NCBI RefSeq assembly: GCF_006345805.1
Contig: NC_043003.1
Span: 47,244,001 to 47,308,000, forward strand
Length of the DNA stretch: 64,000 nucleotides
From: Octopus sinensis
Lineage: Eukaryota
Direction of reading: 5' to 3'
In this document: positions 27,001-53,820 of the stretch, in pieces
Numbering within the stretch: the stretch's first letter is position 1
How the letters are laid out: each line of letters starts with the position of its first letter
Made by a program: the position numbers and the translations under genes
The notes under the pieces: model-generated
Database searches by the model: none
Told to the model about the DNA's origin: nothing
The model's input: only the letters and a program-made list of their open reading frames with translations

Positions 27001-30000
27001 TCATAGGCAGAAACTGAAAGAAGCCTGTTGTATATATGTTTGCATGTCTGTGTTTGTCCCCCCAACATCGCTTGACAACCGATGGTGGTGTGTTTACGTC
27101 CCCGTCACTTAGCGGTTCAGCAAAAGAGACCGATAGAATAAGTACTAGGCTTCCAAAGAATAAGTCCTGGGGTCAATTTGCTCAACTAAAGGTGGTGCTC
27201 CAGCATGGCCGCAGTCAAATGACTGAAACAAGTAAAAGAGTAGAAGAGTAATCATGCATTTCAGTGAAGTGGTTAATTCAAATTAATGTAGGTAAATAAG
27301 CATTGTTTGACAGAGTAATCTGAACACCAAAGGGTTAAGCAGGAAGTTTGTATGATAAAACCAAGAGTAGTCTCAGGTGGGTTGGCATCAAGAGTTAAAG
27401 CTGTTACATTAAGTGATCATCTCTTTTTCTTTATGGTAGTATTATTGTGTCACAATTGTGTTTCCTCGACATGTTTTGTGATTGCATTTTGGATATTCTT
27501 AATTAGTCTCTGTTGTCTTGTCTGTGTTGAAAGATTTTTTTTTTTTAATATGTGGTGTTTTTGGAAGTAGTGTTTAGTGTAGTTGTGTGGGCTTCCTGCA
27601 CCTAGGCAATGACAAGATGGTCATGGTTGGAATGCTTTTGAATGGAGGTCTGCTTCATCAGGTCTCAAGCTGGGGTTATAAATATCAACAACAACAGCAA
27701 CTAGAATCAACATCTTTGAAACCTTTCTGGTTAACATCTTCTGTTCTAGCACTGATCTCTCTTTTTGTATCCAAAATGGAGGTATGACAATAGTTGAATA
27801 TATTCCTTGCTTACAGTATGAAATGCTGGACTCATCTCGTCTTCTCCCTCACTCACTCCAACCCTCTTCATTTATCAGCTCGGTAGGGAGGTGTTGGATG
27901 TTGCTGCCAAGGCAATACAAGTTGGAGTCACTACAGATGAGATAGATCGAATTGTGCATGAGGTAAGTTGGAATTTATTTACTCTGTATGTGTGTATATG
28001 CTTTTAAGTATGTGTGTGCATTTGTATATGTATATATGTTTGTACATGTATATTATGTATGCATAGGCGCGGGCATGGCTGTGTGGTAAGAAGCTTGCTT
28101 CCCAACCACATGGTTCTGGGTTCAGTCCCACTGCGTGGCACCTTGGCCAAGTGTCTTCTACTGTAAGGTGAAAACTGAAAGAAGCTCGCCGTTGTGTGTG
28201 TGTGTGTATGTATGTGTTTGTGTGTCTGTGTTTGTTCCCCGACCATCACTTGACAACTGATGTTGGTGTGTTTACATTCCCGTAACCTTGCAGTTCAGCA
28301 AAAGGGAATGATAGAATAAGTCCTGGGGTCGATTTGTTCGACTAAAGGCAGTACTCCAACGTGGTCACAGTCAAATGACTGAAACAAGTAAAAGAATAAA
28401 AGAATGTAATTATTATAATATGATGATAGTTTCACGTTTTTATCAAAGTGAAGGAAAATGATTTCTCTTATCAGATGTTGCTGTTGAGGTTTTTGAGTGC
28501 ACAAGAGATATTGTAAAACATTAGAAAAAGAAAAGTAGTGAACTTTTATTCAAGCATATTGGCTAGCCATACAATCAGTCAGTAAGAAATACTGATGGGA
28601 TTTTAAAGGGTTGACCACTAGGATGATAATGACATTTTAAATGTATTAATAGACTGTAAAAGGTCAAAAGAGGAGGAGGAAAATCGATTGTTTTATCTGG
28701 TATTCCTGTTGAGGCTTTAAGAGAAGCAATACATTATAAGTCATTTATATGCTATTAAAACAGCTGGTTGGTTGACTATGTAATCAACTGTTAAGAAGTA
28801 TGGATTGGGTAATAAGTTGATAATATGCTAACTTGAGCATTTCATTGTTTCTCGCTACACGGTCAATTTGAGATAGGTATGACTGATTAAATTGCCATCA
28901 GTACATTTTATCAAATCCTTAAAGAGATTAAAACAAAATATATCTGATGGAGATCTGAATACAGACTGTGTAGAAAGGAGGAGGCGGATGATGATGATCA
29001 TCATCATCATCAAGTCAGGGAGCTGGCAGAATTGTCAGCACGCCGGGCGAAATGCTTAGTGGTATTTCATCTGCTGCTACGTTCTGAGTTTATATTCCGT
29101 GGAGGTGAGCTTTGCCTGGGGGGGGGGGGGGGGGCGTCGATAAATTAAGTACCAGTTGCATACTGAGGTTAATCTAATCAAGTGACACCACCTCCCCCAA
29201 AATTTCAGGCCTTGTGCCTATAGTAGAAAGGATTATTATTATTAAGGCGGCGAGCTGGCAGAATTGTTAGCACACTGGATGAAATGCTTAACAGTATTTT
29301 GCCCGTCACTCTGTTCTGAGTTCAACTTCTGCCATGGCCGACTTTTCCTTTTATCCTTTCGGGGTCGATAAAACAAGCACCAGTTGTATACTGGAGTCGA
29401 TGGAATCAACTCATCCCCTCCTCCAAGATGGCTGCCCTTGTGGAAAAATTTGAAACCATTATTATTATTGACATTGGCTCTGTTGATTAAATTGACTGGT
29501 AACCATAGTAACATAATCAGGATTTTAATATAAAAGGGTATTGGTTACCTAAATACCATAAAGCATTTTGTCCAATACTTCGCCAATTCTGTTATCCAGT
29601 ACTCTTATAATGATTTCTAACATAGACACAGAATCCCAAATTTGAAGGAGGGAACAGTTGAATACAGGAGCCACTATAATCAACTACTATAGGCACAGGC
29701 CAGCAAGTTCAGGGGAGCAGATAAGACGATTACATCAACCCCAAAATTATGAAAGGCAAAGTCAACCTTGGTGGAATTTGAATTCTGGATGTAAAAACAA
29801 TGCTTAGCAGCATTTTGTCCAGTGTGCTACTGATTCTGCCCGTTCACTGCTTTAATACTACTAATAATTATTATTATAATTAAACTAAGAAAGACCTGTA
29901 ATACGCTAACTTCAATGCAGTCAGCTACATGATCCACACTTTGACAATGTGTGGGGAATGTTAGTGATGTATAAATATAGTAACTTTACAAATTATTGGC

Positions 30001-33000
30001 TTTTACCTTTGTAAAAGTTTTTGAAACTGTGATTAATAATTGAGTATCTACATTCAGAATACCAATTTAAATGGTTTGTTTCTGTTTTTACAGGCTTGTA
30101 TAGACCGTGATTGTTATCCATCTCCTCTTAATTATTATGAATTTCCCAAATCTTGTTGTACGTAAGTACATTATTGTTGTTGCTTTTTTTTTCTTATAGT
30201 ATTGATTTCTAACATAAGCATAAGATCATAAATTGTTGTGTATGTATATGATTGATTATTATATCAATCCAATACTTGATGGGTACTTATTTTATAGGCC
30301 CCTGGGAAAGTGAAAGGTAAGAATGGGATTTGAATGCAGAATGTAAAGGAAACTGGATGAAATGCTTCACATTATTCATCAGTGTTTCAAATTAAGATCT
30401 TGCTGAAAACAACTTTGCTTTTCAACCTGTTTAAAGCACAGAAAATAAATATCAAGAACATGCTGGGTGTTATTTCAGTTGACTTTACCTCTGATCTCAA
30501 AGTGTGTACTTTGTGCCAATTTAGAAAGTAATGGGTTTTTATTCCTGTTGACACTACAACGGTCAGAGAGTTGATGTATCCTAGACATGGTTATTGAGAG
30601 TTGAAAAATTTTTTTTCAAGCAACATTTTGATAGCTGTAAAGTTAGAGATGAGCTAATAATCTCCAGATCATCTGTGCTGCTAATGTTGTTGGTACAAGA
30701 ATGTACATCACACACCATCTTTCTCATTTATACCCTTCTGTCTTGATTGCAAATCACTACTTTTGTTTTGTAGAAATGGAGAAATAGGAGAGTGCTAGAC
30801 CTAATTCCTTTTATTATTCAGTTTTATCCCTCTACTTTCTAAGTTCAAATTGGAAAAGTGTTAAACTTTACCATCTCTGCTGATGTCTTGTAGTGACTTC
30901 ACTTATACAACATTTCCAAAACCACTTTTAAAGTCTAAGATTCTTCTTTAGTGCTAGAAAATACTTCAGACCTGATCAGTTGCTGACCTTTTATAATGCT
31001 CAAAATATGCCCCACATTGAAGTACTGCTTACATTTGTGGAGCAATGCAGTTGCTATACACTAACTCCAATATTTGTGCAAGCATCTATAGCATGTTTGG
31101 TTGATACTAAGAAAGGCTATGCAGTTCTATCCTGCTGATAATACCATTTTTGTATACAGTTGTAGCTCCACACAGCCTAGACATCTTACATCAGACATGC
31201 AATACTTTTGTAACAGGGATTTTAAAGGCATTTTCTGCCAATCAGCAGCAAAAAGACACAGGGACTGCTTCCGCTTTGCTCAGGAACAACACACAATTAA
31301 AATTCACGATTTTTATCAATGACTAACAGCCTCGTAATTTCTAACAACCTATCATGGTAGCTACACATAAAGTGCTAAGAATGACCTCATAGAATAGTTG
31401 TGTGCAGAATTTTAAAAAAATATACTTAAACTACATATGAGCACAGGTGCAACCCTCATTAGAATACTGTTCACAAAAATCTGGGATTGCATCCCCAAAG
31501 CCACCTTCTGCGTCTTCTTTGCCACCTCTAGTACTTCTATGGCTTTTGTTAAACACACTAATAACTTTACTCTGTCCATTCTCCCCAAAACTGCAACCTT
31601 CTGGAATTGACAGCTCATCCTTACCACTTGCTAATGTGTCCCTTAAGTAAATATTAAAAAAAAAAACTGCATAAATTTCTTTTTTTCAAACTGCTTGCTA
31701 GACTTGATCATAGCAACATGTGAAAACCAACAGTTCAATGATGTGTATGTGTGTGTGTGTGTGCGAGAGGAGAAATTAATAGTAGAGAAACTTGAAATAT
31801 ATTTTACTTTTAATGTATCTGCTCTTCATTTCACTCTGTCAAACTTTCACTCTATTAACAATTGAACTTTGTTCTTGTGTAGGTCTGTTAATGAAGTCAT
31901 CTGCCATGGCATCCCTGATATGAGACCACTTCAAGATGGAGATATTTTGAACAGTAAGTAGTTTGATTCAACTGTGTGTGTGTGTGTGTGTGCATTGTGA
32001 TTTTGAAGTTCAAGTGGGAATCAATTTTATCTTTCATTCTTCCGTGTTTGATACTGTGTCTATCCCAGTTTTAGAGTAGGTATGTTGCATCCCTGCCTAT
32101 CATAACAGGCAACTAAAAGAGTTGACAACAAGAAGAACATCTCACCATAAAACACTAATCTCAAGAAAACCATCAAACCCATACCAGTATGAAAAAGTGA
32201 ACATAAAAACACTGCTGCTACTGTTAATGGTCCTCCTCTTCTTTTCGTGGTTGATAAAATAAGTGCTAGTTAAGTACTGGAGTTAAGATCTACTACATCC
32301 ACACCAAATTGGTGGCTTAGATATTATTATTGATTATAAACAATTGTAAGCAAAACATAGTTATAATAATTACTATTATAATTTAGAGTACGACAGCAAA
32401 CTGGCAGAATCATTAGATTATTGAATAAAATGCTTAGCACCATTTCTGCTGATTCATTAATTTCTGAGTTCAAATTCCACCGAAGTCAACTTTGCCTTTC
32501 AATCTTTCAGGGTCAATAAAATAAGTAACAGTTGAGCAGTGGCATCAATGTAATTGACTGGAGCAAGTTACAAGCTTCTGTTTTAACATCTACTTTCCAT
32601 GCTTGGGGCAGGATTCAGTTGGCCAACTCAGAGCTTTATTTGAAGACACATGCCCAAAGTGCTGCAGTGGGACTAAGCCCGAAACCATGTGGTTGTGGAT
32701 TGAACTTCTTAACCACACAGCCATATCTATTTATATAAAACATTGGTATAACTACATAACAAAATGTACATGTTTAACATTAATGCCACCAATACTGCAC
32801 ATTACAGGGTAATTATTTATCTTTTCTAGTCGATGTAACAGTGTATCATAAAGGTTATCATGGAGACCTGAATGAAACGTTTTTTGTTGGCCAGGTTAGT
32901 GAAGCCAGCAAAGAACTGGTAAAAACTACCTATAAGTGCCTGGAATTAGCTATTAATGAAGGTATGTTGATTTTTGTCTTTCCAAAACACCACCATCGCA

Positions 33001-35932
33001 TTTTTTACTTCAGTTTTTCTATTTATTCATCTATCAAATTTTCAATTGCTATCAATTACTAATATGTATCTTTGTTTTTCTCTTTGCATATCATACATTA
33101 TGTATGTTTCTTGCCTGTTCTATAAATCTTCCTGCTATATTGTATTTATCTATCTATTTGTTCAAGTAACTACCAGTATATTTGTTCATCCACCTACCTT
33201 TATGTACCAATCTATCTCTTCTACTGTATGTTTATCCTATTAGTTCAAGAGTCTATCTATCTGCTACCACCTATCTACCTGTATTTCTTGTTTCTCCTCT
33301 ACTTTTGCTCTGCTACTGTATTAATTACTCTCATTCTGTTTGTCCACTCTAGTGCGACCTAATGTCCGTTACCGTGAAATAGGTAACATCATCCAACAAA
33401 ACGCTCAGGCTCATGGATTTTCTGTGGTTCGTGGTTATTGTGGACATGGCATTCACCAGTAAGTTTTTGATAATGTAGCATTTCTGAATAGAGGAAACGT
33501 TGAGGTTGTGGTAATGAGTGATGGTGGTGGGGATTTTTGAAGGTGAGATAATAGTGTGCTGATGTGAAGGTTGTTACAATGGCATGATGGTGTTGAGACT
33601 GCCAGGTTAACCTGAGTGGTGGTGGTGTTGAAGTACACATTGTCACTGTTATGGTTTTGTACAGTTGTGAGGATAATGTAGAGGAACCGTGGTGGTGATG
33701 CTACAGTGTTCTTTTGTTGATGATATGGTGTTGATGTTTGTGTTAAGGCTTATGCCAACCATCCTAGTATGCAAAACTTTAAAGTAAAAGAAAGATGTCA
33801 AAGATAATACTTTTGTTTTCCTTCTTTAGGTTGTTCCATACTTCACCAAGTGTACCTCACTATGCTAGTAAGTATTCTAAGATTTTGTCATTAATCTGTT
33901 AAAATTAAACAACAGAAGCAAAAAGATGTTATCTTTTCTACACTCTCTATTCTGTCTGTTATAATGTTATGCATACACACATATTCAGGGACATATATAG
34001 AAATATGCAGCTGTATTGTCTGTCTCTCTCTGTACACAAATGCACATTCTACAACAGGATTGTTGAAGACATTTAGCTAACTTATTAAGAAACAACTACT
34101 GAAAATGAGAAATTTCTAATTTCTAAAAGTATTAGCTTTATAATTTAACTAAATGTTTTTAACAATCATGTTGAGAAATTTTTGTGTGTTTATTCCTGTA
34201 AATATATTTATACATACTGAGAAACAAACTGATAACACTTGTCATATTCTTAAGAAAATATTTGTGTGTGCATATGCATGTGTTATTATATAGAGAAATA
34301 CAAAGCAGAGAGAGAGAGAGAGAGAGAGAATGCCTGGACAGACAAAAAGAATGGAGAATCATATTTTTTTCTTTCAATGTTGTAATAAGCTACTTCTTTT
34401 AAAAGATCAATTTGTCTAACACACGTGGACATACCTACAAAGTCAGAAAACAACACAGCTCCCATGACTTTCAGAAACATTTTTTCACGCTCAGAGTTGC
34501 TGAAGCATGGAATAAACTGCCTGCGTCAGTTGTTGACTGCCATGACATTGCATCCTTTAAGGCCCTCATGCTTTCCGAAATCCGCCGAAACTACACCTGA
34601 TTATATATACACTTTAGATGAGTTGTAGTGCACCTGAGCACTGTACACAATTATTATTATTATTATTATTATTATTACCTCAAACTCTCATCTAATACAT
34701 GAGTAACCCACATACTCTACAAGCATTGTCCACTTCAGTTTCCACCATTCAATCATTTCAGAAAAATTAGCTGAATGATGATTTTCTTAGTCTTTTTTTA
34801 TATCTTTCAACTGCTTCATAAACTTAATTCACTCTTTAGAGACAATACATCATAAGATGGCAATGGACTGTATTAAAAAGATGATAAAAAATTTTCTATA
34901 TTTTGATCTTTTAAATGTTTGTTTTATTTCAATATTGTTTTATCATCTTTTATTTCAGTTCTAGCATATATACTTATTTTTTCAATAAAGCAAATATTGC
35001 TTATTCCAGGTATAGTAAAACTGGTCATGCACTGGTTAATTTTGAAAATAACGAAAAATATTTTACAATATTTTTCATTATTATTAAACCAATAACATGA
35101 AATTTTTAATTTAGATCACAGGAAGTCTGTAAAGATGATCTCTGGCAGACTGGTATCAGAAGCAATATTTACTTCTCTCTCTTTTTTTTTTTTTTATAGA
35201 AAACAAAGCTATAGGTGTGATGAAGCCTGGCCACTGTTTCACCATTGAACCCATGATTTCTGAAGGTAAGTGGATTTAGAAGTACTTTCAATGGGATTTC
35301 ACTATGGCCCTTCCAACCTTATGTGATATTCTCTCTGGTCCTAATTTCAACTCTGAAAATTATGGCAAGCATTACAATATTGACCAGACGATCAAATCTT
35401 GTCATATACTGCTGGTCACAATATGCTTTGCATTGACTTAACTTTTAGACGAATAGTGTTGACAGTGACTTTGAAGTTTCAATTTGCTTAGCCGTCATCA
35501 GACTGTAGTATATATTTGAGTTCATCTTGGTAAATTTACTTTCCCTGGGGTTGGAGCTTTGTCAGATGATAATTAGGTTGGAGGGTGAACTCTTGAGTTT
35601 TTTTTCTTTGAGAACATTCATCTATAACATAGCCAGGATTCCATCATAGTAAACACTTGGGTTTTTTGTTAAAGCCTGGAAAAAAGTAAAACATATATAT
35701 ATGTATTTGAGATTATTTTTCTTTCCCTTTAATTTTTCTTTATTTTTTCTTTTCATCTCATTAAGGAACATGGAGGGATGAAACTTGGCCTGATGGTTGG
35801 ACTGCTGTCACACTTGATGGTAAAAGGTCAGCTCAGTTTGAACATACGCTTCTTGTCACTGAGACTGGCTGTGAAGTGTTGACTAAACGACTAACAAATG
35901 ATGGACAGCCGCATTTTTTCGACCAGTTGTAG
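5962..35932 (+). CDS. METAP1: Methionine aminopeptidase 1 (type Ib, N-terminal zinc finger); 13 coding exons, 1122 nt, 373 aa
   Basis: join(5962-6066,21420-21471,21599-21678,22878-22938,25647-25738,27879-27962,30094-30161,31883-31953,32830-32961,33353-33458,33830-33867,35200-35265,35766-35932). All junctions are GT-AG and phase-compatible. Motifs: CETPGC..QCPTC..FCTQECF..HKQLH zinc finger, [56 protein letters not shown] (D,D,H,E,E metal ligands). Confidence 0.97.
7820..8037. mobile_element. piggyBac-like (TTAA) MITE, CCCTTTCGTTAC family
   Basis: TTAA-CCCTTTCGTTAC ... GTATCAAAAGGG-TTGA; body similar to the copies at 11970 and 25369. Confidence 0.75.
9711..9928 (-). mobile_element. SINE (GGCGAGCTGGCAGAA family), reverse
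   Basis: Matches the family core on the minus strand. Confidence 0.75.
10647..10694 (-). ncRNA. Degenerate minimal hammerhead-like motif (Penelope pLTR-like)
   Basis: Minus strand GTCT CCGACAA agtGATATaagaaATATCccg GAAA CAGCTG TA AGAT; two substitutions in the CUGANGA box. Confidence 0.45.
11970..12189. mobile_element. piggyBac-like (TTAA) MITE, CCCTTTCGTTAC family
   Basis: Perfect 12-bp TIR CCCTTTCGTTAC/GTAACGAAAGGG; flanks ATAA and TTAA. Confidence 0.85.
12440..13095. repeat. Purine-rich (G/A) low-complexity tract
   Basis: Strong G+A bias on + with very few C; ORFs on - are S/L/P/H-rich artefacts. Confidence 0.6.
14003..15218 (-). mobile_element. Full-length decayed mariner transposon
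   Basis: ~40-bp imperfect TIRs (TCGGGCTGAGTAAAAAGCAAGCAACATTTTGAAACATGAA; right TIR read on the minus strand TCAGGTTGAGTAAAAAGTAAGCAACGTTTTGAACCATGAA); TA flanks. Minus-strand motifs [41 protein letters not shown]; many stops and frameshifts. Confidence 0.93.
16128..16174 (-). ncRNA. Minimal type-I hammerhead ribozyme motif inside a ~100-bp palindrome
   Basis: Minus strand ATTTATc CTGATGA ATCaCA-GAAA-TGAGAT GAAA GTGC TA aATAAAT: intact core boxes, stem II with a GAAA tetraloop, stem I ATTTAT/ATAAAT. Confidence 0.65.
16957..18040 (-). mobile_element. RTE-clade LINE internal fragment (linker to RT domains), decayed
   Basis: Minus-strand [22 protein letters not shown]..., [15 protein letters not shown], and remnants of the YKGKGD, GFVPGKST and GVHQ-S-SP-LFII RT motifs. 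Confidence 0.88.
18259..18559 (+). mobile_element. Young tRNA-derived SINE with 14-bp TSD
   Basis: TSD CAAATCACTGCCTT (18245-18258 / 18560-18573); A/B boxes TGGCCTAGTG and GGTTCGAATA. Confidence 0.88.
21018..21255 (+). mobile_element. SINE (GGCGAGCTGGCAGAA family) with 14-bp TSD
   Basis: TSD GTATAAGGTTGGTT (21004-21017 / 21256-21269); B-box GAGTTCAAATTCC. Confidence 0.9.
21420..21471 (+). CDS. METAP1: METAP1 exon 2 ([17 protein letters not shown])
   Basis: TTTTTCCAG| acceptor, |GTAAGT donor. Confidence 0.95.
21599..21678 (+). CDS. METAP1: METAP1 exon 3 ([27 protein letters not shown])
   Basis: TCTTTCAG| acceptor, |GTAAAC donor; PWP.YRFTG.LRP motif. Confidence 0.93.
21746..21941. mobile_element. 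piggyBac-like MITE, CCCTTTAGCATT family
   Basis: TTAA-TCCTTTAGCATTCA ... TGAATGCTAAAGGG-TAAA; related copies near 43185-43375 and 55750-55960. Confidence 0.75.
22878..22938 (+). CDS. METAP1: METAP1 exon 4 ([21 protein letters not shown])
   Basis: TTTTCAG| acceptor, |GTTTGT donor; RPDYAD motif. Confidence 0.93.
25369..25589. mobile_element. piggyBac-like (TTAA) MITE, CCCTTTCGTTAC family
   Basis: TTAA on both sides, CCCTTTTG...AAAAGGG ends; ends 57 bp upstream of METAP1 exon 5. Confidence 0.8.
25647..25738 (+). CDS. METAP1: METAP1 exon 5 ([30 protein letters not shown])
   Basis: TTTTAG| acceptor, |GTGAGT donor. Confidence 0.95.
27879..27962 (+). CDS. METAP1: METAP1 exon 6 ([28 protein letters not shown])
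   Basis: TTTATCAG| acceptor, |GTAAGT donor. Confidence 0.96.
28066..28403 (+). mobile_element. SINE (GGCGC...GTGTGGTAAGAAGCTTGC family)
   Basis: tRNA-like head, internal (GT)n, tail GACTGAAACAAGTAAAAG. Confidence 0.85.
29015..29468 (+). mobile_element. Two tandem SINEs of the GGCGAGCTGGCAGAA family
   Basis: Heads at ~29015 and ~29245, each ending in (ATT)n; the first has an internal G-run. Confidence 0.8.
30094..30161 (+). CDS. METAP1: METAP1 exon 7 ([23 protein letters not shown])
   Basis: TTTTACAG| acceptor, |GTAAGT donor. Confidence 0.96.
31883..31953 (+). CDS. METAP1: METAP1 exon 8 ([23 protein letters not shown])
   Basis: TGTGTAG| acceptor, |GTAAGT donor. Confidence 0.96.
32830..32961 (+). 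CDS. METAP1: METAP1 exon 9 ([21 protein letters not shown]...LAINE)
   Basis: CTTTTCTAG| acceptor, |GTATGT donor; two metal-binding Asp residues. Confidence 0.96.
33353..33458 (+). CDS. METAP1: METAP1 exon 10 ([36 protein letters not shown])
   Basis: CACTCTAG| acceptor, |GTAAGT donor. Confidence 0.96.
33830..33867 (+). CDS. METAP1: METAP1 exon 11 ([12 protein letters not shown])
   Basis: CTTCTTTAG| acceptor, |GTAAGT donor. Confidence 0.95.
34413..34677 (+). mobile_element. 5'-truncated CR1/L2-clade LINE 3' end with (TTA)n tail
   Basis: [25 protein letters not shown]-terminal motif; near-identical to 44755-45015 in the opposite orientation. Confidence 0.9.
35200..35265 (+). CDS. METAP1: METAP1 exon 12 ([23 protein letters not shown])
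   Basis: Poly-T TATAG| acceptor, |GTAAGT donor. Confidence 0.96.
35302..35593. repeat. ~290-bp direct repeat, copy 1 (METAP1 last intron); contains a hammerhead motif
   Basis: Near-identical to 38492-38781. Confidence 0.92.
35462..35506 (-). ncRNA. Type-I hammerhead ribozyme motif (copy 1)
   Basis: Minus strand ACAGT CTGATGA CGGCTAAGCAAATT GAAA CTTCAAAG TC ACTGT: perfect 5-bp stem I, stem III ACTT/AAGT, GUC site; stem II weak. Confidence 0.6.
35766..35932 (+). CDS. METAP1: METAP1 exon 13 ([39 protein letters not shown]...FDQL*)
   Basis: Acceptor TTAAG| after a long pyrimidine tract; TAG stop at 35930-35932. Confidence 0.95.
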
Positions 35933-36075
35933 CAGGAGTGTTGTTGGACAAGCGGAGAAATTCAAAGATTTTTTTTTTTTCCTCCACTTCTGTTCCTTCT
36001 TTTCTGCTTCATTAGAGACTATTACTACTACTACTATTACTATTAACAATAATAATAATACAAAGGAGGAAGATG

Positions 36076-36081
36076 AATAAA
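36076..36081 (+). terminator. Candidate METAP1 polyadenylation signal AATAAA
   Basis: First AATAAA ~145 nt after the stop, followed by a T-rich tract. Confidence 0.5.
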
Positions 36082-36159
36082 GTACTGTAAAAATTAATCC
36101 GTTTTTTTTTATTGTTTTATATATATTTTCCCTGTTTTAATCTTTTTTTAATGAATCTG

Positions 36160-36370
36160 TACCATCCGAATGTGGTTGATGCCAGTGCCTCCTGACTGGC
36201 TCCTGTGTCAGTGGCATGTAAAAAAGCACCCACTACACTCTTGGAGTGGTTGGTGTTAGGAAGGGCATACAGTTGTAGAAACCTTGCCAGATCAAATTGG
36301 AGCCTGGTGCAGCCGCTGGTCAAACCGTCTAACCCATGCCAGCCTGGAAAGCAGACGTTAAACAATGATG
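36160..36370 (+). mobile_element. Retroposon fragment with RTE-type tail (CCCATGCCAGC.TGGAAA..GACGTTAAA(TGA)n)
   Basis: Same body and tail as 52960-53312, 54936-55210, 62655-62850 and the LINE end at 63342. Confidence 0.75.
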
Positions 36371-36899
36371 TATATTGTTGAAGCAGTTTCTAAGTCATCA
36401 TCGTTTAATACCCACTTTTCCATGCTTGCATGTGTCACAGAATTTGTTGAGGCAGATTTTCTATGGTTGGATGCCAACGCTCAACTGTTTCCAAGCAAGG
36501 TAATATTTCCCTCATGGCTATGCATGTTTTTCGCAGAAGATCAGCAAACAACGTGTGGTAAGTAGCTTGCTTACCAACCACATGGTTCCGGGTTCAGTCC
36601 CACTGAGTGGCACCTTGGGCAAGTGTCTTCTACTATAGCCTCGAGCCGACCAAAACCTTGTGAGTGGATTTGGTAGACGGAAACTGAAAGAAGCCCATCG
36701 TATACATGTGTATATATATAATGTATATGTGTGTTTGCGTGTCTGTAACTTGTAATGTCAACAGCAATATATAGTCACTGATTTACAACAAACAAAGGAG
36801 CTAGTTGTAAAATCTCATGAAGAGATCAGAATAGTAACTATACTAACAAGTAAAGTCAATCGCCACATCATAGTGGCTGTTCCATTTTGACCCCAGGAA

Positions 36900-37434
36900 G
36901 ATCTTTTCCTTTTGAACGGCACATGTCAACACAATACCCTTCCCCAACCCCTAAATCTAAAATAGATTGAAATGCGATAGATCAATACTAGGGTTATAAT
37001 TATGGGTGACATTTTCATTTGACACCGCTAGAAAAAATCCCATTTTCCATAGCGGTATCATATGAAATTGTCACCCATAATTATAACCCTAGTATCGATC
37101 TATTGCATTTCAATCTATTTTAGATTTAGGGTTAGGGGTGGGGGAAGGGTATCTTTTTTTCTTCGCAAATGTAAATAAACCCAATCTGTTTCTTAAACGA
37201 GAGACATATTCATACAGCACGGAATGTTTTCACCCCAAATGGAGGTCAGCGATTGGTTAAAATTGCCGAAATGCTTGAAATTAAAGTGGAAATATGTTAC
37301 AACATATAGAATTTTCTCAATAAAGCCAAGAAAAAAATGATGTTTTATAAACACATTCTACCAGTATACGAAGTTTAAAAGTGTTTAGTTAACTAGAAAT
37401 TGTGTTGACATGTGCCGTTCAAAAGGAAAAGATC
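36900..37434. mobile_element. Non-autonomous DNA element (MITE) with perfect 36-bp TIRs and an internal foldback
   Basis: TIR GATCTTTTCCTTTTGAACGGCACATGTCAACACAAT (36900-36935) and its reverse complement (37399-37434); internal inverted arms ~36934-37152. Confidence 0.88.
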
Positions 37435-38182
37435 CAGATCTTTCAAGACATTCTCACCACCCATCTCTTTAACTGCAGTATTTTACTGCTGCTGTAATTA
37501 AATGTGAGAACTACACACTTCATTAGTATCTTCCTCATATCTATTCTTCTTACTTCCTGGAACCATTTCACTTTTTATCAATTCCTTCTTTCTTAACACT
37601 GTCCTTTCCATCACTTTTTACATTGATCACTCTCAACCATACCTCCTCTCTCATTCGCTTATCCTCTGTACCATGATTACTATTCTGCTGCTCCTTCTCC
37701 CGCACTGTCAATTCTCTCCTACTCTTCCTCCAGCTTATATGTATCATGCTTGATGAGATCATTGCAAAGAGCTTCAGGGTTTGTAACGTAGAAGTTTGGG
37801 CAATGCAAAGTATGAAGAAATGTGGCAAAATATTTTTGCTCTTTGCAAAGATAAACATTAGTAAAAACTCTTAATAATGTAGGAAAATACATTGTCTTAG
37901 TAATTCTGCACCAGTCGAACAAGTGTTTTCTGTAATAATGTGTTGTTCGTTGAAAGGGACAGTATAACAGAAGCTATAGTCAGGGGCCTTCAGGTGACTA
38001 CAATAACATGCCACTAAGTTGCTCAAACATTTTTTTTGCAAGATTAAAAATGACAATGAATTTCTTAGAAAAATATCAAAGAATCAGTAAGTAAATGAAA
38101 TACTACTTGACAATAAAGACAGGTTTAATTTGATTTATTTTTTAATGTCACTGTTTTACTTGCCTATATCTTACATGCTTGA

Positions 38183-38225
38183 TTGTCCCCTCTATGTTTA
38201 GCCCCTTGTGGGTAATAAAGAAACA
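38183..38225 (+). mobile_element. 43-bp 5'-truncated SINE tail with 18-bp TSD
   Basis: TSD TATATCTTACATGCTTGA (38165-38182 / 38226-38243); insert matches the 3' end of the SINE at 21018. Confidence 0.85.
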
Positions 38226-38491
38226 TATATCTTACATGCTTGAGCTGTCAAGGATAATTGTTTTACACATTTTCTTTTTTCAGTATCTATCTCTCTGCAC
38301 CTTAACCTAACACTTAACTTTCTTAGTGATAAAGATAGATTCTACATTTTACTAGTTTACACATCACTTCAGCACTTGTTAGGAATCTCCTTCGAGAAGA
38401 AAATATAATTAATACACTTGCTATAAAAATCCGTCTACCTCTAGTTGGTAGGGAGAAGAGACTTGTTCTCCTTTAGTACCCACCCCACATG

Positions 38492-38781
38492 CTATGGCCC
38501 TTCCAACCTTATGTGATATTCTCTCTGGTCCTAATTTCAACTCTGAAAATTATGGCAAGCATTACAATATTGACCAGACCATCAAATGTTGTCATATACC
38601 ACTGGTCACAATATGCTTTGCATTGACTTAACTTTTAGAAGAATAGTGTTGACAGTGACTTTGAAGTTTCAATTTGCTTAGCCGTCATCAGACTGTAGTA
38701 TATTTGAGTTCATCTTGGTAAATTTACTTTCCCTGGGGTTGGAGCTTAGTCGGATGATAATTAGGTTGGAGGGTGAACTCT
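38492..38781. repeat. ~290-bp direct repeat, copy 2 (downstream of METAP1); contains a hammerhead motif
   Basis: Near-identical to 35302-35593. Confidence 0.92.
38652..38696 (-). ncRNA. Type-I hammerhead ribozyme motif (copy 2)
   Basis: Identical to 35462-35506. Confidence 0.6.
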
Positions 38782-39880
38782 GATAGAAAGATGTTATAGA
38801 TTTTTATTGATTAAAATTGGAGTTGTATTATTGTTCAGAATAAAACTTTTGTAATCAGATGTGTCATCTTATATATTATTGTTGATGGCTGTTGACTGGG
38901 TAATGCAACAATCTACACAAATTGTAAAACACAAGTATAGTGTTGGCACAAGACAAGATGCTAGAGGATTGAGATTTTATGGATAACATTTGGCTGATAT
39001 CCCAGAATTTTCAAGACAAGTAGAAAAAGACAGTCTAACAGAAATAGCAGTAAAAACCAGACTGAGGGTTAACATTGAAATATTGTGTCGGTGATTGATG
39101 TTAAAATTATGATAAAAAGTGTCCAATCTTTTCTGCAGATCTTATGCATCTAGGATTACATTAGTCTACCCTCATTTTTTTTTTTTTGTTTTACTGCCAT
39201 TTCTAGCAAGTCAGGGGACCACAAAAGTGCTCATCATAGTGAAGAACTTTCATAGTTGGATTATGGGGCCAACATTCAAACCTTTCTTCAAGGAGAGACT
39301 TTTTTTTCCCATAGAGCATCAATGAACTCAGCATTGTGAGCAAACAAAACAAACACTCATAAGCTTCACAGTGCTACCACTGCTTACTGCAGTAAGCTAT
39401 ACATAGACTCTGCTGTTTAATGTCTTTGTCAAGGATTTAACATATCACTCCAACAATTTTTGGCCAACTGTCCAGCACAATTGCAATTCAGATAGATATA
39501 ACCAAGACAAAACCAGAAAGTTTTTTTTTTTTTTTTTTTTTGATAAGATTCCAATATACTCTCCAATTAAAGGCTCCATTCTACTTAAAGTTTATTTTTT
39601 ATCCAATCATACATTATTTAAAGAACTTGTTTGTGCAATACAATAATTAACCTTTAATTGTGTGTGTGCGTGAATTCACATAGCATAGTTTGTCATATCA
39701 CTTAAGTGACAGTCGTGAACTAAAAACAAGCTACATCCAATGTGTTGTACTTCTAAACTATTTCCATTCTGAGAAAATATGAGATGAGAATCTTATTGAT
39801 TTCTCAGAATGGTTTTGTAAATAAAGAATGAAATAAATTATGCTAACTTACAATTAATGCATATGCATGTATTTAATATT

Positions 39881-40056
39881 CTTTTCTACTCTAGGCACAA
39901 GGCCCGAAATTTTGGGGGAGGGGGCCAGTCGATTAGATCAACTGGTACTTAATTTATCGACCCCGAAAGGATGAAAGGCAAAGTTAACCTCAGAACACAA
40001 AGACAGATGAAATACCGCCAAGCATTTTGCCCAGCGTTCTAACGTTTCTGCCACCT
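39881..40056 (-). mobile_element. SINE (GGCGAGCTGGCAGAA family) with 17-bp TSD
   Basis: TSD TGCATGTATTTAATATT (39864-39880 / 40057-40073). Confidence 0.85.
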
Positions 40057-40556
40057 TGCATGTATTTAATATTAGTCAATATACTTCACTACAGAGTATA
40101 CTATATATCATTGCTACCACCATACTAGTATGGGTTTGATGGTTTGAAAGAATCTGGCAAGCCTCAGACTATATCCAATCTCTTTTTCTTTTCTTTTTTT
40201 CCTATAAAGCATCACTGAACTCTATTATTGTGGAAGTTGTAAAGATAATTTATGGACACCTTTGTGTGATCCATGGCTTACTTCTTGTGCTTGCAACACA
40301 TCATCAACCAAAGAGGTAGAAGCTTCAGTGATGGAGTTTTTCGCATTGCAGGACAGGGACTGATAGCAGCATGGGATCAAAGAACTGGCAGAAAGGTGGC
40401 TTCAGACAGTGCAACATGATGGCCTCTACTTTGAATAAGCTGCTTTTGATGCAATTTGATGAATAAAGCTAAGATACCAGAATATTGCAAAACTTTTGAC
40501 TAAACACATATATGTATATATATATATATGTGTGTGTGTGTGTATGTATATATGTG

Positions 40557-41411
40557 CGTGGTCTGATCAATAAGTATCTGGACTACATGCAGAGTGAAGC
40601 TACTTGATACAGTGACCTTGAACTCTGCTGTGCATGTGCACTAAATTTTAATGTTCTACCTCACTTATGCTGTTTACAGCAGTGCTTGGAAGGAAGGCGT
40701 GTAGTGTGTGATCATTGCATTGACCATGAAAGAGAAAACTGAGTAGAGAATCTGCATCAAATTTTGCCAAAAGCTTGGTGATACCTGCTCAGAGGCCTAT
40801 GCAAAGTTTCCAAAAAGTTTTCATCATCCTCAACACAATCAAGATCCTGTGCAACTGAAACCCAGAGTGTCAGCTGAAAGCAGTTTTGGCACAAACTTGG
40901 CAGACACACATCTCATAGCCAAATCTTCAGTGATAATGGACTGAAGTGAACTGTAACTAATCTGCACATACTTTGATAACTCACGAATGGTGATTTGATG
41001 ATCTCTCCTCACAGCTGCATGCACATCTGTGATGTTTTTCTCAGTCCTGCTGGTTATGGGTCTCCCAGAATGTTCATCAACATCGATATTTTTTCAGTCA
41101 TCTTGGAAACATCTGAACCATTCGTACACGTGTGCAGCTCATACACTGCTCTGTATACACTTTCTGCAACTTTGCATAAACCTCTAAGCAGTTATCACCA
41201 TGACAACTTTCTTTGTCATGGTCAATGCAATGATCATACACTACACATGTTCCTTCCAAGCACTACTGTAAACAGCAGAAGTGAGCTAGAACATAAAAAC
41301 TTAGTCTGCATGCACAGCAGAATTCAAGGTCAATCTTTGCCAAGCAGCTTCACTGTGTGCTTTAGGTTCGTTATTATGGCAACAGTCTGGATAGTTATTG
41401 ATTAGACCTTG
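40557..41411. mobile_element. Non-autonomous mariner derivative made of two inverted 5' ends
   Basis: ~28-bp TIRs CGTGGTCTGATCAATAAGTATCTGGACT / AGTCTGGATAGTTATTGATTAGACCTTG-TA. Inverted similarity runs through the 5' UTR into the ATG. Minus strand encodes HSGRP..VRRDHQITIRELS..LAMRCVSAKFVPKLLS. Confidence 0.87.
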
Positions 41412-41908
41412 TATACATGTGAAAGAGATAGACCCAGGAAGACGTGGGTCGAAGTAGTGAGAAAGGATCTTCTGACATTGAGCCTCACAGAGGGGATGAC
41501 AGGGGACTCAAACTCCTAGGCGTTTGCTGTGCTTGAGAAGACATGCTAGGTAAAATTGTGGCTTTTCTTGCATACAAACATGGCCTCTGTTATAAAGTAG
41601 TTGCCATTAGGAGGTCCTGCAAAATCTATGTGCACTCAAGATCATGGTGCTTTTGGAACTGACCAAGGAGTGCTTATCTAAATAGGTAATTTTGAGGATT
41701 TTGCACATTTTGAACATGTTTGCACAAGAGACTCCCTGCATCTCTCTCCAGCTGAGCATTCTTAGTCTTGCAGTGCTGGTGCCATGTAAATGCATTTGTG
41801 CCTGTGCTGCAAAAAGCACCCAAAACACTCTGTAACAGCTGTAGAAGCCATACCAAAACAGACATGGAGCATGGGGAGCTCTTCAGCTGGCCAACTCTTG
41901 TCAAACCT

Positions 41909-42135
41909 ATTTCTTTACTACCCACAAGGGGCTAAACACAAAAGGAACAAACAAGGACAGACAAACAGATTAAGTCGATTACATCAACCCCAGTGTGCAA
42001 CTGGTACTTATTTTATCGACCCCAAAAGGATGAAAGGCAAAGTCGACCTCGGCGGAATTTGAACTGAGAACTTAACGGCAGACGAAATATGGCTACGCAT
42101 TTCGCCCAGCGTGCTAACGATTCTGCCAGCTCGCC
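41909..42135 (-). mobile_element. SINE (GGCGAGCTGGCAGAA family) nested in an RTE-tail retroposon
   Basis: Flanked by a GTCAAACC direct repeat that interrupts the host element. Confidence 0.82.
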
Positions 42136-42202
42136 GTCAAACCATCCAACCCATGCCAGCATGGAAAACGAACATTAAATGATGATACATACATATATAT
42201 AC

Positions 42203-42532
42203 TAAGGGTAAAGACCCCCTTCGGTCATGAGTGACCATGGGATTGCACCTAGAGAGTTACCCTCTGAGGCACAAGTCTGGGCAAGGTTGTTTTATGGAAG
42301 ACCAGTAGTCGCCCATGCATACCGGCCTCCCCTCTCCACGCCACCAGTGTTATCCAAGGGAAAGACAAAGGTCGATACAGCTTGGCACCTGTGACGTCGC
42401 AACTCATTTCTACAGCTGAGTGAACTGGAGCAACGTGAAATAAAGTGTCTTGCTCAAGAACACAACACACAGCCCGGTCCGGGATTCGAGCTCACAACCT
42501 CGACGCTCTAACCACTGAGCCATGCGCCTTCA
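42203..42532 (-). mobile_element. tRNA-derived SINE (GAAGGCGCATGGCTCAGTGG head), reverse
   Basis: Minus-strand A box TGGCTCAGTGG and B-box-like GCTCGAATCC. Confidence 0.8.
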
Positions 42533-44754
42533 TGTATGTAATTATAGGGATTATATGTACATGAGTACACATTTACATTTATCTTATAATTTAATACGAT
42601 AATAAAATTTTTACCCTTAAAAATTTAAATTTTAAACTAGCAATATATCAAATTTAAAAAAAGAAAAAAGTAGTTCAGTTCGGCAACCCTATCTTGAGGC
42701 TAAACAATAACGACAACAATTGCAGGGACTAATACAGCAATCTCCCTGAGGCTGATTCATGATTGATTAAATTAGAAAGAAATCTGTAAATTAATTGGGT
42801 CAATTTATAAGATCATTATGTTATATAATCGTTATTGTAAGTCATAATGATTAGTAGTAATGGTATGGTTGGCTAATGTTGTTGATGGTGATGGTGATGG
42901 TGGTGTTATGATAGTGATGTGGTGTGTATGGAAAAATGTTCTGAAGCAATATTATGATGGAATTGATACAGTGGAGCAATTTTTGTGATGGCATTGTGAC
43001 AATGAGGTAGTATAAAGGAAATGATGTGACGTTAGTTATGGTGATGGTAGAGGAGGAGATGATAATGTATGATAGGAATTATGTTAATTCAGGTCAACCC
43101 TGACACAACTAACAGACCAGTGACGAAAGGTGTTCAAATTGAGGTTAATCTGTCTTTTGGTAAATGCAATTGTGGCATTATTAACCCTTTAGCATTTAAA
43201 CTGGCCAAAATATTCTACCCATTTTATGAACAAAGTGGCTATATCTGGCCTCTCACACCAACCCTTCAATGTCATTCTAAAAATTAAGTTACCTCATCAA
43301 AATATCAAAGCTGTAAGATAATGCATGATTAATTTAAAACTATGAATAAATTGACTGAATAACGTAAATGCTAAATAAAATAGCCATCTATGTATTATAA
43401 TGTATATACACCATTGATAGGGCAGTTACTGAGATATTTGTCCAGAGGTAACATCTCTTGGTAATGAATTCTCGTCAAAGCATGTGACCATCTGTGAGTA
43501 CAAGTTATTGAAAGGTCCCAAAAAGTTCAAGTGCATCTGGCATTTATGCAAGCCACCACTGGAATGATTTGTGTTTTTAACACTGCATGTCCTTAATAGA
43601 TGTTATCTCAGGGTGAATACCACAGTAACTATTCTATCAACACAGCATATATATTAAGTATAATACCTAGATGGCCATTTCATTTTCTTCCTTCTGTAAG
43701 GTACACTTTATCCCAAACTACATTAAGGCCCAAACACATCTCCCTCCCTTTCTATAATGGTGTAGGGTGTAATTTAAGAGGATTTGGTTACTATTTCTAG
43801 GAGGTCAAGTGATCACATACAGACCCTCCTCTTTGGCTTGTGTTGAAGTTATATTGGTCATGATGGTTGTTATTGCTTAATGCCATTTCAATCCTGAGCA
43901 ACTGAACTACATGTGACACATGAGTCTCAGGTTGCATGTTTCTAGTATAGATGATTGTGGTAGTGGTAGCAGTGGTGGTACAGTATGACTGCTGACTTAC
44001 TTAAACAATGTGAACAGTTGACAAATTCTCATCTAAATATACCAAACTAAAAATAGCAAGTTCTACAAATAAAAAAATCATAAAAGCTATTACTTGTTAA
44101 TTAACAGAAGTTATATTTAGTACATCACTGGTTATTAGTGGATAATGATTCTTTCTTCTTTTTAATCTTAAATTTGTGTGTAGCCTTCTTATTTTGTTTA
44201 ATGCTTACACCTGGAGAGAGGGGGTGTGGTGTGCCTATAGTCTGCAAAGAGTTTGATATCATTACTGTTCCTCCTGAATTCTTGCAAGTGAATAGCTGTA
44301 AAAAAAACACTGAAATCTTTCCTAGATCTAAAGAGACAGGCCTGTCCTTGATATGTAGTCTTTGCTGCATTGAGGACATGCATTCACCAGAACATCCACA
44401 ACAACTGAGAGAGACCTAAGATTTGAAGCAATCACAAGAGATTTGGTTATGTACTGTTCATACTAAGGGATGTGGTAATGCTTTATTGAGGTGAACTGAT
44501 TGTGCTTTTTTTGCCACTGAAAGAAACAAGATTAGCATGACCTCATTGGAGAATGTTTTTGAGTGTACTCAGATTAATGCTCTTCAAACCATGTATGTTT
44601 GGGTGTAAACATTTACATAGATATACACATACACACAAACACAGATATGGTTTGAAGAGCATTGAGCTGAGAGCACTCAACACAACATAACAAATACCAT
44701 GCATGAATCTGACTGCACAAGTGCTGAATAAAACTTAAATAAATTGGAATAGAG

Positions 44755-45634
44755 ATAATAATAATAATAATAATAATTGTGTACAGTGCTCAGGTGCACT
44801 ACAACTCATCTAAAGTGTATATATAATCAGGTGTAGTTTCGGCGGATTTCGGAAAGCATGAGGGCCTTAAAAGATGCAGTGTCATGGCAGTCAACAACTG
44901 ACGCAGGCAGTTTATTCATGCTTCAGCAACTCTGAGCGTGAAAAAATGTTTCCGAAAGTCATGGGAGCTGTATTGTTTTCTGACTTTGTAGGCATGTCCA
45001 CGTGTGTTAGACACATGGAGATCAAAAAGGTGTTCAGTGTTGTTGTTGGTGAGGTGGTTGATAACTTTGTGGGTGTTTACCAAGTCTGTCGCCAAACGCC
45101 GGAGCTTCAGTGAATCCATGCCCAGGGAAACAAGGCGCTCAGAATATGGTAGGTGTCTGATGGAGGGTATGCGTTTGGTTGCACGTCTCTGGACAGATTC
45201 CAGGAGGTCAATGTTCTGTGCAAGATAGGGGTTCCAAACTGATGATGCGAATTCCAAGTGTGGTCGTACCATAGCTGTATACAGTTTTAAATAGATGGCT
45301 GGAGAGCGGCTAACAAAAGACCTGCTGAGTGATGCCAAGACACCCTCGGCCTTCCTGACAATCTTAGAGATATGCTTTGACCAACGCAAATCACTGCTGA
45401 CAGTGATGCCTAGGTCACGCTCGCAAGAGGATTTCTTGATATCAGTGTTGTGGAGGGAGTATGTGAACGCAGGGTTTTTTCTCCCAAAATGCATGGTGGT
45501 ACACTTGTCCACAGCCAGTTTCAGTTGCCTGTCTGTGATCCATTGCTGCATTGTGTCTAGGTCTGATTGCAGGAAAGAGTTGTAGACATCAGGATCTGTC
45601 CTCTTGATTTCAAGGTACAGCTTGATGTCGTCTG
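44755..45634 (-). mobile_element. 5'-truncated CR1/L2-clade LINE (RT C-terminal half) with (TTA)n tail
   Basis: Starts at the (A)DDIKL catalytic motif. ORF 44916-45551 has ERDLGI, LYTAMVRPHLEFASSVWNP, LESVQRRATK and TRGH; a 1-nt deletion truncates the C-terminus relative to the 34413 copy. Confidence 0.93.
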
Positions 45635-46060
45635 ATCCTTCAGTAAGCAGACTAATATGTTCTTTTCAGGGGTTATAACCCCTAATGATGTTTTAGAACA
45701 AATGTACAATTATATATATAAATGGATGTATGATGATGATATATATGTGTAGTGCCCATGGTTTTTTTTTTACCTTTTCTTTGTACTTTTTTCTGTTTTG
45801 CAACTCACTAACATTGGTATACAAAAATAGACACCCAGTACACACTGTAAAGTGGTTGGCATTAAAAAGGGTATCAACCATAGAAACCATGTCAAAGCTA
45901 ACGCTGGAATTTTCTGGAACCTGTTAAAATGTCCAACCCATGCCAGCATGGAGAAAGTGGACGTTAAATGATGATGATGATGATATATATATGTGTGTGT
46001 GTGTGTGTGTATGTATGGGCACACTTCATAAATATATTACAATTTAAAAAACAAAACAAT

Positions 46061-47454: not shown

Positions 47455-47991
47455 CTGAAAATAAAAGAAAAAAGGGAAACATTACAAAAACAAAACCATT
47501 GGTTTCTTATTGGTACAAGATTACAAATCTAGAGGAGAAGGATGAGACCAGTATGTATACATTTAGTATGATACACAGATGGCAACTGAAATCAATGCTG
47601 TTTCAATTGCGTACATTGAGTTTTTACACACACACATTCACACACACACACACACACACACACGCACTCACACACACACACACACACCACAAATGCATTC
47701 ATAGAGATATCACTGACTTCTTGCTTCACATTATTTTCCCATCTCCTTCTCTGCTCATGAGAGGTAATTAGAAAAGTAAATGTGAAGCAGATGATTGTAC
47801 TGACCTCATTCATCATGCAGGGACTGCTAAAGCTATAGATATCTTTCAAACACTTCAGAACAGATAGTTAAAATAAATAAATACAAATTAAGTAGAGTAA
47901 CTTCTACCATACAAGTTTACCAAAACAGACTTATGTAACATATTGAAACTATTCAGCTATAACAATAACAAAGCAATGAATTAAGTCTTAC

Positions 47992-53534: not shown

Positions 53535-53570
<36 letters not shown>

Positions 53571-53573
<3 letters not shown>

Positions 53574-53820
53574 GTAAAAAAATACAAACTGGTACAAGAA
53601 CGCAAAACATTTAGAAGACGATACAAAAAACATGGACGGGACATTCGAAGCCTTCAATCTTCAGTCAAGAACCGGATCATCCTCGCAATTTCGGCTGATT
53701 AATCTTGAGGATGATCCGGTTCTTGACTGAAGATTGAAGGCTTCGAATGTCCCGTCCGTGTTTTTTGTATCGTCTTCTAAATGTTTTGCGTTCTTGTCCC
53801 AGTTTGTATTTTTTTACATA
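53571..53820. repeat. Near-perfect 114-bp-arm palindrome within (TA)n
   Basis: Arms 53571-53684 and 53707-53820, 2 mismatches, 22-nt spacer. Confidence 0.95.

What the first reader, a model, noticed from the sequence alone, without database searches (positions are those of the whole stretch)
35302..38781. A ~290-bp unit containing a hammerhead ribozyme motif occurs twice around the METAP1 3' end (retrozyme-like?)
Seen: 35302-35593 (last METAP1 intron) and 38492-38781 are near-identical direct copies 3.19 kb apart. Each has short imperfect inverted ends (CCCTTCCAACCT...AGGTTGGAGGG). On the minus strand each carries ACAGT-CUGAUGA-N14-GAAA-CUUCAAAG-UC-ACUGU, a type-I hammerhead with perfect stem I, short stem III and a GUC site. 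Known: metazoan non-LTR retrozymes and Penelope pseudo-LTRs are short units with such minimal type-I hammerheads, often active as dimers. Inference: this may be a mobile ribozyme-bearing element. Stem II is weak and identical in both copies, so local duplication of an old relic is equally possible.
Basis: partly seen in the sequence, partly recalled or inferred. Interest (0 to 1): 0.72.

Follow-up and report, generated by a model that had tools for sequence, protein, structure and literature searches.

The report
Duplicated scrap of decayed Penelope retrotransposon
The two 290-base copies are one patch of old jumping-gene debris that was copied once into a nearby intron, and the hammerhead ribozyme motif in it is the worn tail of a common Penelope-like retrotransposon, predicted to be inactive, so this is an ordinary relic and not a mobile ribozyme element.

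Summary
In detail: two 97%-identical copies, a minus-strand type-I hammerhead motif and short inverted ends. The retrozyme reading does not.

The whole unit occurs only twice in the genome and is a patchwork: an old low-copy repeat, an ~80-nt SINE/LINE tail, and the 3' end of a hammerhead-bearing family (613 exact motif matches against 1 control). Two family copies carry reverse transcriptase, endonuclease and hammerhead on one strand, with motifs of Hydra-clade Penelope-like elements. All 21 loci with two hammerheads are inverted pairs, none tandem.

Older homology runs through both ends of the downstream copy and neither end of the intronic copy, so the intronic copy is a local duplicate. 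Here stem II has no Watson-Crick pair, the helix-III palindrome is broken, and the family shows no covariation. The 'perfect' CUGAUGA core likely arose by CpG decay of CCGAUGA. Cleavage is untested.

One thing is unexplained: the inverted ends are rarer than chance (0.1-0.4%) and may have guided the duplication. The scan has already noted Hydra-clade hammerhead relics on other DNA of this and other genomes.

The parts
35302..35593 (+). Copy A: derived local duplicate, in the last intron of the methionine aminopeptidase 1 gene, 36 nt after the donor site
   Evidence: no older homology crosses either end
38492..38781 (+). Copy B: source copy, about 2.56 kb past the METAP1 stop codon
   Evidence: older homology crosses both ends
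38632..38841 (-). 5'-truncated 3' end of a Hydra-type Penelope-like element; runs 60 nt beyond the duplicated unit; 13% diverged from the family majority
35442..35593 (-). Duplicated part of the same Penelope-like relic, cut off at the unit end
38652..38696 (-). Decayed type-I hammerhead motif: stem I 5 bp; stem II G-U, G-U, C-A; helix III ACUUCAAAGU, no longer palindromic; nominal cut after 38657
35462..35506 (-). Identical decayed hammerhead motif in copy A, antisense to the METAP1 pre-mRNA; nominal cut after 35467
38558..38637 (-). ~80-nt 3' tail of an abundant repeat, shared by a likely tRNA-headed SINE and a likely LINE (A/B-box and LINE labels by inspection and recall)
35368..35447 (-). 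Duplicated SINE/LINE tail fragment in copy A
38449..38541 (+). Old low-copy repeat (one other copy found, L149, 74% identical) that crosses the left end of copy B
35308..35319 (+). Left arm of the terminal inverted match in A (B: 38498-38509)
35575..35585 (+). Right arm of the terminal inverted match in A (B: 38763-38773); inherited from the Penelope 3' region, where the commonest family form differs by one base
35766..35932 (+). Coding part of the last METAP1 exon (context)

Best explanation
The unit is a patchwork of old repeat fragments, including the hammerhead-bearing tail of a decayed Penelope-like retrotransposon, that was copied once from downstream of METAP1 into the gene's last intron, likely during DNA break repair, and its ribozyme is predicted to be inactive. 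Step 1 (shown by homology): a 5'-truncated copy of a Hydra-type Penelope-like element came to lie at 38632-38841 on the minus strand, next to a SINE/LINE tail and an older repeat. Step 2 (shown by comparison with the family): it decayed neutrally, losing stem II and the palindromic helix III that such hammerheads use to work as dimers. Step 3 (direction shown, mechanism inferred): a 292-nt slice cutting through these relics was duplicated 3.19 kb upstream without poly(A) or target-site duplication, which fits templated insertion at a break; the 11-bp inverted match at the slice ends may have helped define it. Step 4 (inferred): both copies are neutral passengers, antisense to METAP1, and the intron is still spliced.
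For: Only 2 of 42 genomic matches cover the whole unit; the other 40 cover at most about 94 nt at 78-89%. The 60 nt right of B match 47 of 140 loci, the 60 nt right of A match 0 of 140. L149 aligns across B's left end but matches A only from the unit boundary. In 2 of 7 fetched regions (L143, L140), RT, endonuclease and hammerhead lie in order on one strand (tblastn E 4e-26 and 8e-11 in L143), and the hammerhead region matches the window relic (E 4.6e-6 and 1.7e-11). Motifs YRDD, W[FY]NPP, CxCX5C, YIGS and CxxC-E match the Hydra clade alignment (PMC8557442). Two-hammerhead loci are inverted in 21 of 21. Window stem II has 0 of 3 Watson-Crick pairs and predicted pairing probability 0.00, against 0.76-0.98 in three intact natural copies; helix-III self-duplex is -4.8 against -13.9 kcal/mol. 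Covariation score 0.164 against 0.162 shuffled (203 of 500). Right junctions of A and B are bridged in 3 of 4 and 4 of 4 DNA runs, so the duplication is shared across organism labels B, C, D.
Against: Cleavage was not tested, and natural hammerheads with 1-2 bp stem II can be active (PMC3088659, passages). The inverted ends are uncommon (0.1-0.4%) and not explained by plain random duplication. No empty intron site was seen, so the insertion footprint is unknown. Pfam gave no RT hit and only sub-threshold GIY-YIG hits (E 0.0084, 0.012), and two word-index protein searches found nothing. The clade assignment therefore rests on 1275 phmmer hits to unnamed proteins plus motif comparison by eye; no tree was built. 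5 of 7 fetched regions did not show coding remnant and hammerhead together.
Confidence: 0.9

Rival explanations
1. The ~290-nt unit is itself a mobile non-LTR retrozyme monomer that is transcribed, self-cleaves as a dimer, circularises and reinserts.
For: Size near 300 nt and a type-I hammerhead, as in retrozymes (PMC7229834, passages); copies 97% identical; ends can pair.
Against: Only two copies found. No tandem array in 33000-41000 or in 21 of 21 two-hammerhead loci. Unit ends cut through older relics. Stem II and palindrome lost. Whole-unit folding is not beyond shuffles (z -0.43 and -1.23). Presumed-RNA contigs run across the unit ends instead of stopping there.
Confidence: 0.03
2. The slice was copied through an RNA intermediate: a read-through or antisense transcript closed by the 11-bp terminal stem was trimmed, reverse transcribed by a resident retroelement enzyme and inserted near its source.
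For: The inverted arms lie 6 and 8 nt inside the independently defined duplication ends, and such pairing is rare (4 of 4,000). Low-depth presumed-RNA contigs cover B.
Against: No poly(A), no target-site duplication, no (TA)n target, and the family's own 3' tail is not at the unit end. Insertion 3 kb from the source in the same orientation fits a DNA template better (inference). The statistic is post hoc.
Confidence: 0.06
3. The relic was co-opted as a cis-regulatory or small non-coding RNA (snoRNA-like, or a ribozyme acting on an antisense transcript such as read-through from the minus-strand ankyrin-SOCS-box gene).
For: Intronic position; both copies are retained in related samples; a minus-strand gene ends about 7.5 kb to the right.
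Against: No Rfam hit. No C/D or H/ACA boxes at the stem by inspection. Run X6 differs from the window at 3 of about 80 positions in the right part of each copy, no fewer than in the flanks. The motif is antisense to METAP1.
Confidence: 0.02

Closest known systems
Hydra clade of C-terminal-endonuclease Penelope-like elements, including Hydra-1_Obim of Octopus bimaculoides (Craig et al. 2021, PMC8557442; passages, section 11, supplement parts 2 and 58 and supplement search hits read)
   Same: RT then C-terminal GIY-YIG-type endonuclease; YRDD, W[FY]NPP, CxCX5C linker and CxxC near the conserved E; type-I hammerhead near the 3' end with an extra base after the core and an ACUU..AAGU-type helix III; (TA)n neighbours; inverted truncated partners.
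   Different: The hammerhead sequence differs from the one listed for Hydra-1_Obim, so this is another family. About 1.2-1.3 kb with internal repeats lies between endonuclease and hammerhead, longer than expected for elements mostly under 3 kb. The likely ancestral core is CCGAUGA, whereas the Hydra hammerheads listed in File S2 all have CUG. All copies seen are broken.
Minimal hammerheads of metazoan Penelope-like elements (Cervera and De la Pena 2014, PMC4209133; parts 1-2 of 4 read)
   Same: Dispersed single motifs from truncated elements, opposite-strand pairs, a nucleotide between 9 and 10.1, G10.1-C11.1 and a palindromic helix III in the family.
   Different: Stem II is short (3-5 bp, not 7-8). 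In the window copy G10.1-C11.1 has become G-U and the palindrome is lost.
Metazoan non-LTR retrozymes (PMC7229834, passages; bioRxiv 10.64898/2026.07.22.740005, part 1 of 5)
   Same: Unit of about 300 nt, low GC, type-I hammerhead motif.
   Different: No head-to-tail tandem, only two copies, patchwork origin, decayed ribozyme, no sign of a discrete or circular RNA.

Membership tests
Non-LTR retrozyme | Head-to-tail tandem monomers, each with a complete hammerhead | tested here: not met
   Copies are separated by 2.9 kb of other DNA; no tandem repeat with this unit; 0 of 21 two-hammerhead loci (about 3 kb each) are same-strand
Non-LTR retrozyme | Multi-copy family of the whole monomer | tested here: not met
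   2 full-length matches among 42 (40 of 235 candidates scored)
Non-LTR retrozyme | Expressed as linear and circular monomer RNA | tested here: inconclusive
   Unstranded contigs of 4 presumed-RNA runs cross the unit ends; no circular joint among 15 shown, 49 not shown
Active type-I hammerhead ribozyme | Conserved core CUGANGA / GAAA / UH | tested here: met
Active type-I hammerhead ribozyme | Stem II closed by G10.1-C11.1 | tested here: not met
   G-U, G-U, C-A; predicted pairing 0.00; only 6 of 48 copies not selected by pattern are as decayed
Active type-I hammerhead ribozyme | Stable or palindromic (dimer-forming) helix III | tested here: not met
   ACUUCAAAGU against the family palindrome ACUUCGAAGU; self-duplex -4.8 against -13.9 kcal/mol
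Active type-I hammerhead ribozyme | Covariation supporting the stems | tested here: not met
   86% of cells pair (14-32% when slid), but covariation is at shuffle level, 203 of 500
Active type-I hammerhead ribozyme | Self-cleavage | not testable with these tools
   needs an in vitro assay
Hydra-clade Penelope-like element (parent family) | RT followed by C-terminal GIY-YIG endonuclease on one strand with a 3' hammerhead | tested here: met
   L143 and L140, 2 of 7 regions fetched; Pfam GIY-YIG only sub-threshold
Hydra-clade Penelope-like element (parent family) | CxCX5C linker and CxxC beside the conserved E | tested here: met
   CxCX5C intact in L134/L140, decayed in other copies; CxxC in L081, L089, L096, L108; 4 of 4 full-length homologues have both
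Hydra-clade Penelope-like element (parent family) | CCHH motif absent from the endonuclease | tested here: met
   By inspection of translations: no cysteine pair between the IVY and YIG strands
Hydra-clade Penelope-like element (parent family) | N-terminal RWK and DKT motifs | tested here: inconclusive
   The family copies fetched lack this region; RWK in 2 of 4 and DKT in 3 of 4 homologues
Hydra-clade Penelope-like element (parent family) | Insertion into (TA)n | tested here: met
   By inspection, TA-rich microsatellites follow the tail in most of the 12 pattern loci; not true of the window copy
Hydra-clade Penelope-like element (parent family) | Phylogenetic placement of the RT in the clade | not tested
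   No tree built; reference sequences were seen only in the paper's supplement
MITE / non-autonomous DNA transposon | Terminal inverted repeats at the exact ends, target-site duplication, many copies | tested here: not met
   Arms are 6-8 nt inside the ends, no TSD, two copies, right arm inherited from the Penelope relic

The most novel reading that the evidence does not exclude
A chance 11-bp stem closed a piece of transposon debris into a self-contained hairpin that was copied as a unit, a snapshot of how a new non-autonomous element could be born. The parent Penelope family spread to at least hundreds of copies while carrying a U4C (CCGAUGA) hammerhead core known to be slow in vitro, with fold-back ends clustered at stem I, so the motif may serve as a structural landmark for the retrotransposon enzyme more than as a fast ribozyme.
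Probability: 0.1. Interest if true: 0.4.

Novelty: new member of a known kind. Interest (0 to 1): 0.12.

Why it matters
Little, at this locus: it is a neutral duplicate of transposon debris. It is a useful caution, because a textbook CUGAUGA core can appear through CpG decay in a dead element, and two near-identical hammerhead copies can come from one local duplication. The parent family adds a further Hydra-type Penelope family with a long 3' region and a likely U4C core, which gives a natural test of how much cleavage activity these elements need.

Tried and rejected
Rfam scan of 30000-45000 at E<=5: no hammerhead or snoRNA hit over the unit. snoRNA/scaRNA reading: rejected, no boxes at the stem and the unit is made of repeat fragments. 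MITE reading: rejected (see membership).

Gene conversion between A and B: single double-depth contigs over the first ~180 nt in DNA runs suggested it, but contigs drop variants and may merge near-identical copies, so it was not used. Search for an empty intron site: none in 4 DNA runs, all close relatives. The left junctions are covered by only 30 letters on the unit side (except B in X5), just under the tool's bridging rule.

Continuous minus-strand transcript from the ankyrin-SOCS-box gene through both copies: bin 38771-39021 has no cover in 4 of 4 presumed-RNA runs; lack of cover proves nothing.

Word-index protein searches with two broken fragments found nothing. Pfam named no RT in 4 fragments or 8 homologues. 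A Pfam accession recalled from memory was not in the library. The SINE head was not found to the right of the Penelope relic. Search of earlier findings by sequence returned nothing. Pfam scan for neighbouring genes used 76 of 108 open frames listed.

No claim of absence from print is made. Supplements of the bioRxiv preprint were not seen.
Full report
Observation. The two copies are at 35302-35593 (A) and 38492-38781 (B), 96.9% identical, with 7 substitutions and a 2-nt indel. A lies in a 500-nt GT-AG intron that is spliced in 4 of 4 presumed-RNA runs, and the next exon matches type I methionyl aminopeptidase. Rfam did not detect the motif. I did not identify the organism with a tool; earlier scan notes on this genome call it an octopus.

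The unit is a patchwork. A genome search with the unit gave 42 matches (40 of 235 candidates scored). Two are the window copies; the rest cover only nt ~130-240 or nt ~77-146. Unit nt 67-146 belong to an abundant repeat end (214 candidates). By eye, 10 of 19 such loci continue into a tRNA-like head with A- and B-box-like motifs and about 5 into a LINE-like sequence (labels by inspection and recall). Unit nt 141-292 belong to a hammerhead-bearing family: a 20-nt motif with two degenerate positions has 613 exact matches against 1 for the reversed control. The first 50 nt match one other old locus, L149.

B is the source and A the duplicate. The hammerhead family homology runs 60 nt past the right end of B, to about 38841. 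That flank matches 47 of 140 loci, while the flank right of A matches 0 of 140. L149 aligns across the left end of B (38449-38541, 74%, E 2.3e-7) but matches A only from the unit boundary. So both ends of B are crossed by older homology and neither end of A is. No target-site duplication or poly(A) is visible. The right junctions of A and B are bridged in 3 of 4 and 4 of 4 DNA runs from three organism labels. The duplication is therefore shared among close relatives, and no empty site was seen.

The parent element. Walking upstream from the hammerhead crossed about 1 kb of non-coding sequence with internal repeats and reached broken coding sequence. All 19 genomic matches to an endonuclease fragment lay in short open frames, 15 of them with stops inside. 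An RT fragment read through its stops found 1275 unnamed relatives by phmmer. Three full-length relatives laid on 7 fetched regions showed RT, endonuclease and hammerhead in order on one strand in L143 and L140; the other 5 showed only part. The motifs (YRDD, W[FY]NPP, CxCX5C, YIGS, CxxC-E, no CCHH) match the description and alignment of the Hydra clade of Penelope-like elements (PMC8557442, section 11 and supplement). Pfam support is weak (GIY-YIG E 0.0084 and 0.012, below cut-off; no RT), two word-index searches were empty, and no tree was built. The hammerhead differs from that listed for Hydra-1_Obim, so this is a further family. After dropping 16 own or redundant loci, 77 of 123 loci held a hammerhead; 21 held two, all 21 as inverted pairs and none in direct tandem. 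That is the Penelope pattern (PMC8557442; PMC4209133), not the retrozyme pattern (PMC7229834; bioRxiv 10.64898/2026.07.22.740005).

The ribozyme here is decayed. The family form has a 5-bp stem I, one extra base after the core, stem II GGC/GCC and the palindromic helix III ACUUCGAAGU. The window copy reads GGC/AUU (0 of 3 Watson-Crick pairs) and ACUUCAAAGU. Predicted stem II pairing is 0.00 against 0.76-0.98 for three intact natural copies, and the helix-III self-duplex falls from -13.9 to -4.8 kcal/mol. None of 48 gap-free copies found without the intact-motif pattern met all my intactness criteria. Across 33 aligned copies 86% of stem cells pair, but covariation equals the shuffles (203 of 500), as expected for neutral decay from one ancestor. 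The relic is 13% from the family majority (median of 23 other copies 17.5%), far older than the 2.4% A/B split. Neither strand of the unit folds better than shuffles.

Core positions 4-5 behave like a CpG. In 23 copies found through other parts of the element they read TG 7, CA 5, CG 5, TA 3, other 3, and among 12 otherwise intact matches 7 have CCG and 5 CTG. The ancestor therefore likely had CCGAUGA, a U4C variant reported to lower activity in vitro while still supporting a viroid (PMC3088659, passage). The canonical core in the window is then likely a product of deamination. Against certainty of inactivity, that paper also reports active hammerheads with 1-2 bp stem II.

Expression. In 4 presumed-RNA runs (unstranded contigs) the listed contigs over A and B have low depth (2-8, similar to intronic sequence) and run across the unit ends; no circular joint was among those shown. 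The motif is antisense to METAP1. The nearest minus-strand gene found is an ankyrin-SOCS-box frame at 46248-47528.

What is left unexplained. The inverted arms lie 6 and 8 nt inside the duplication ends, and equal pairing occurs in 68 of 18,275 (alignment) or 4 of 4,000 (duplex energy) random window segments. The right arm is inherited from the Penelope 3' region and the left lies in the old low-copy repeat, so they are not transposon termini. They may have helped delimit the copied piece (inference, post hoc statistic).

Verdict. A real but ordinary feature: a single local duplication of transposon debris that includes the decayed hammerhead tail of a Hydra-type Penelope-like element. It is not a retrozyme. 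The parent family is a new member of a known kind. Earlier scan notes describe Hydra-clade hammerhead relics elsewhere in this and other genomes; I had reached this reading before seeing them and did not check their loci.

Noticed in passing
window 55992-57109 (+): Broken Hydra-type Penelope RT fragments (tblastn E 1e-19 to an unnamed full-length relative), interrupted by a SINE-like repeat; no DNA match of the coding part to the family studied here.
   Followed up: partly
window 54148-54317: Head-to-head palindrome (87%) with two hammerhead cores (54223 minus, 54244 plus) and an ACUC-A-AGAGU-type helix III, of a different family, next to TA repeats.
   Followed up: partly
window 53563-53828: Young palindrome, arms 122 nt and 98% complementary, between TA microsatellites, with a CUGAAGA motif in each arm; it looks like another two-armed Penelope-style insertion.
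   Followed up: no
L012, L013, L026, L109, L110, L116, L119, L120 (hammerhead at about 1500), and a nearby variant in L030: Fold-back palindromes of this family are centred at the 5' strand of stem I or the first core base, and several other copies (L006, L028, L029, L111, L114, L117) simply start there: a possible truncation and inversion hotspot. Loci were selected by hammerhead searches, so the frequency is biased.
   Followed up: partly
family hammerhead, core positions 4-5 (for example L110, L111, L116-L118): The likely ancestral core is CCGAUGA (U4C); the stem II loop occurs in two linked forms, UAAGCAG and UUAGCUG.
   Followed up: partly
window 46248-47528 (-): 427-codon open frame with ankyrin repeats and a SOCS box (ASB-type gene), convergent with METAP1. 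A further 249-codon frame at 44919-45665 (-) has no Pfam hit.
   Followed up: no
window 34510-34672 and 44755-44917: 163-nt inverted pair, 99% complementary, 10 kb apart and bracketing the METAP1 3' end; probably a young repeat.
   Followed up: no
window 35588-35599: The right junction of copy A forms a tiny hairpin (AACTC-TT-GAGTT) across the boundary, which could be a repair footprint (seen in the sequence).
   Followed up: no
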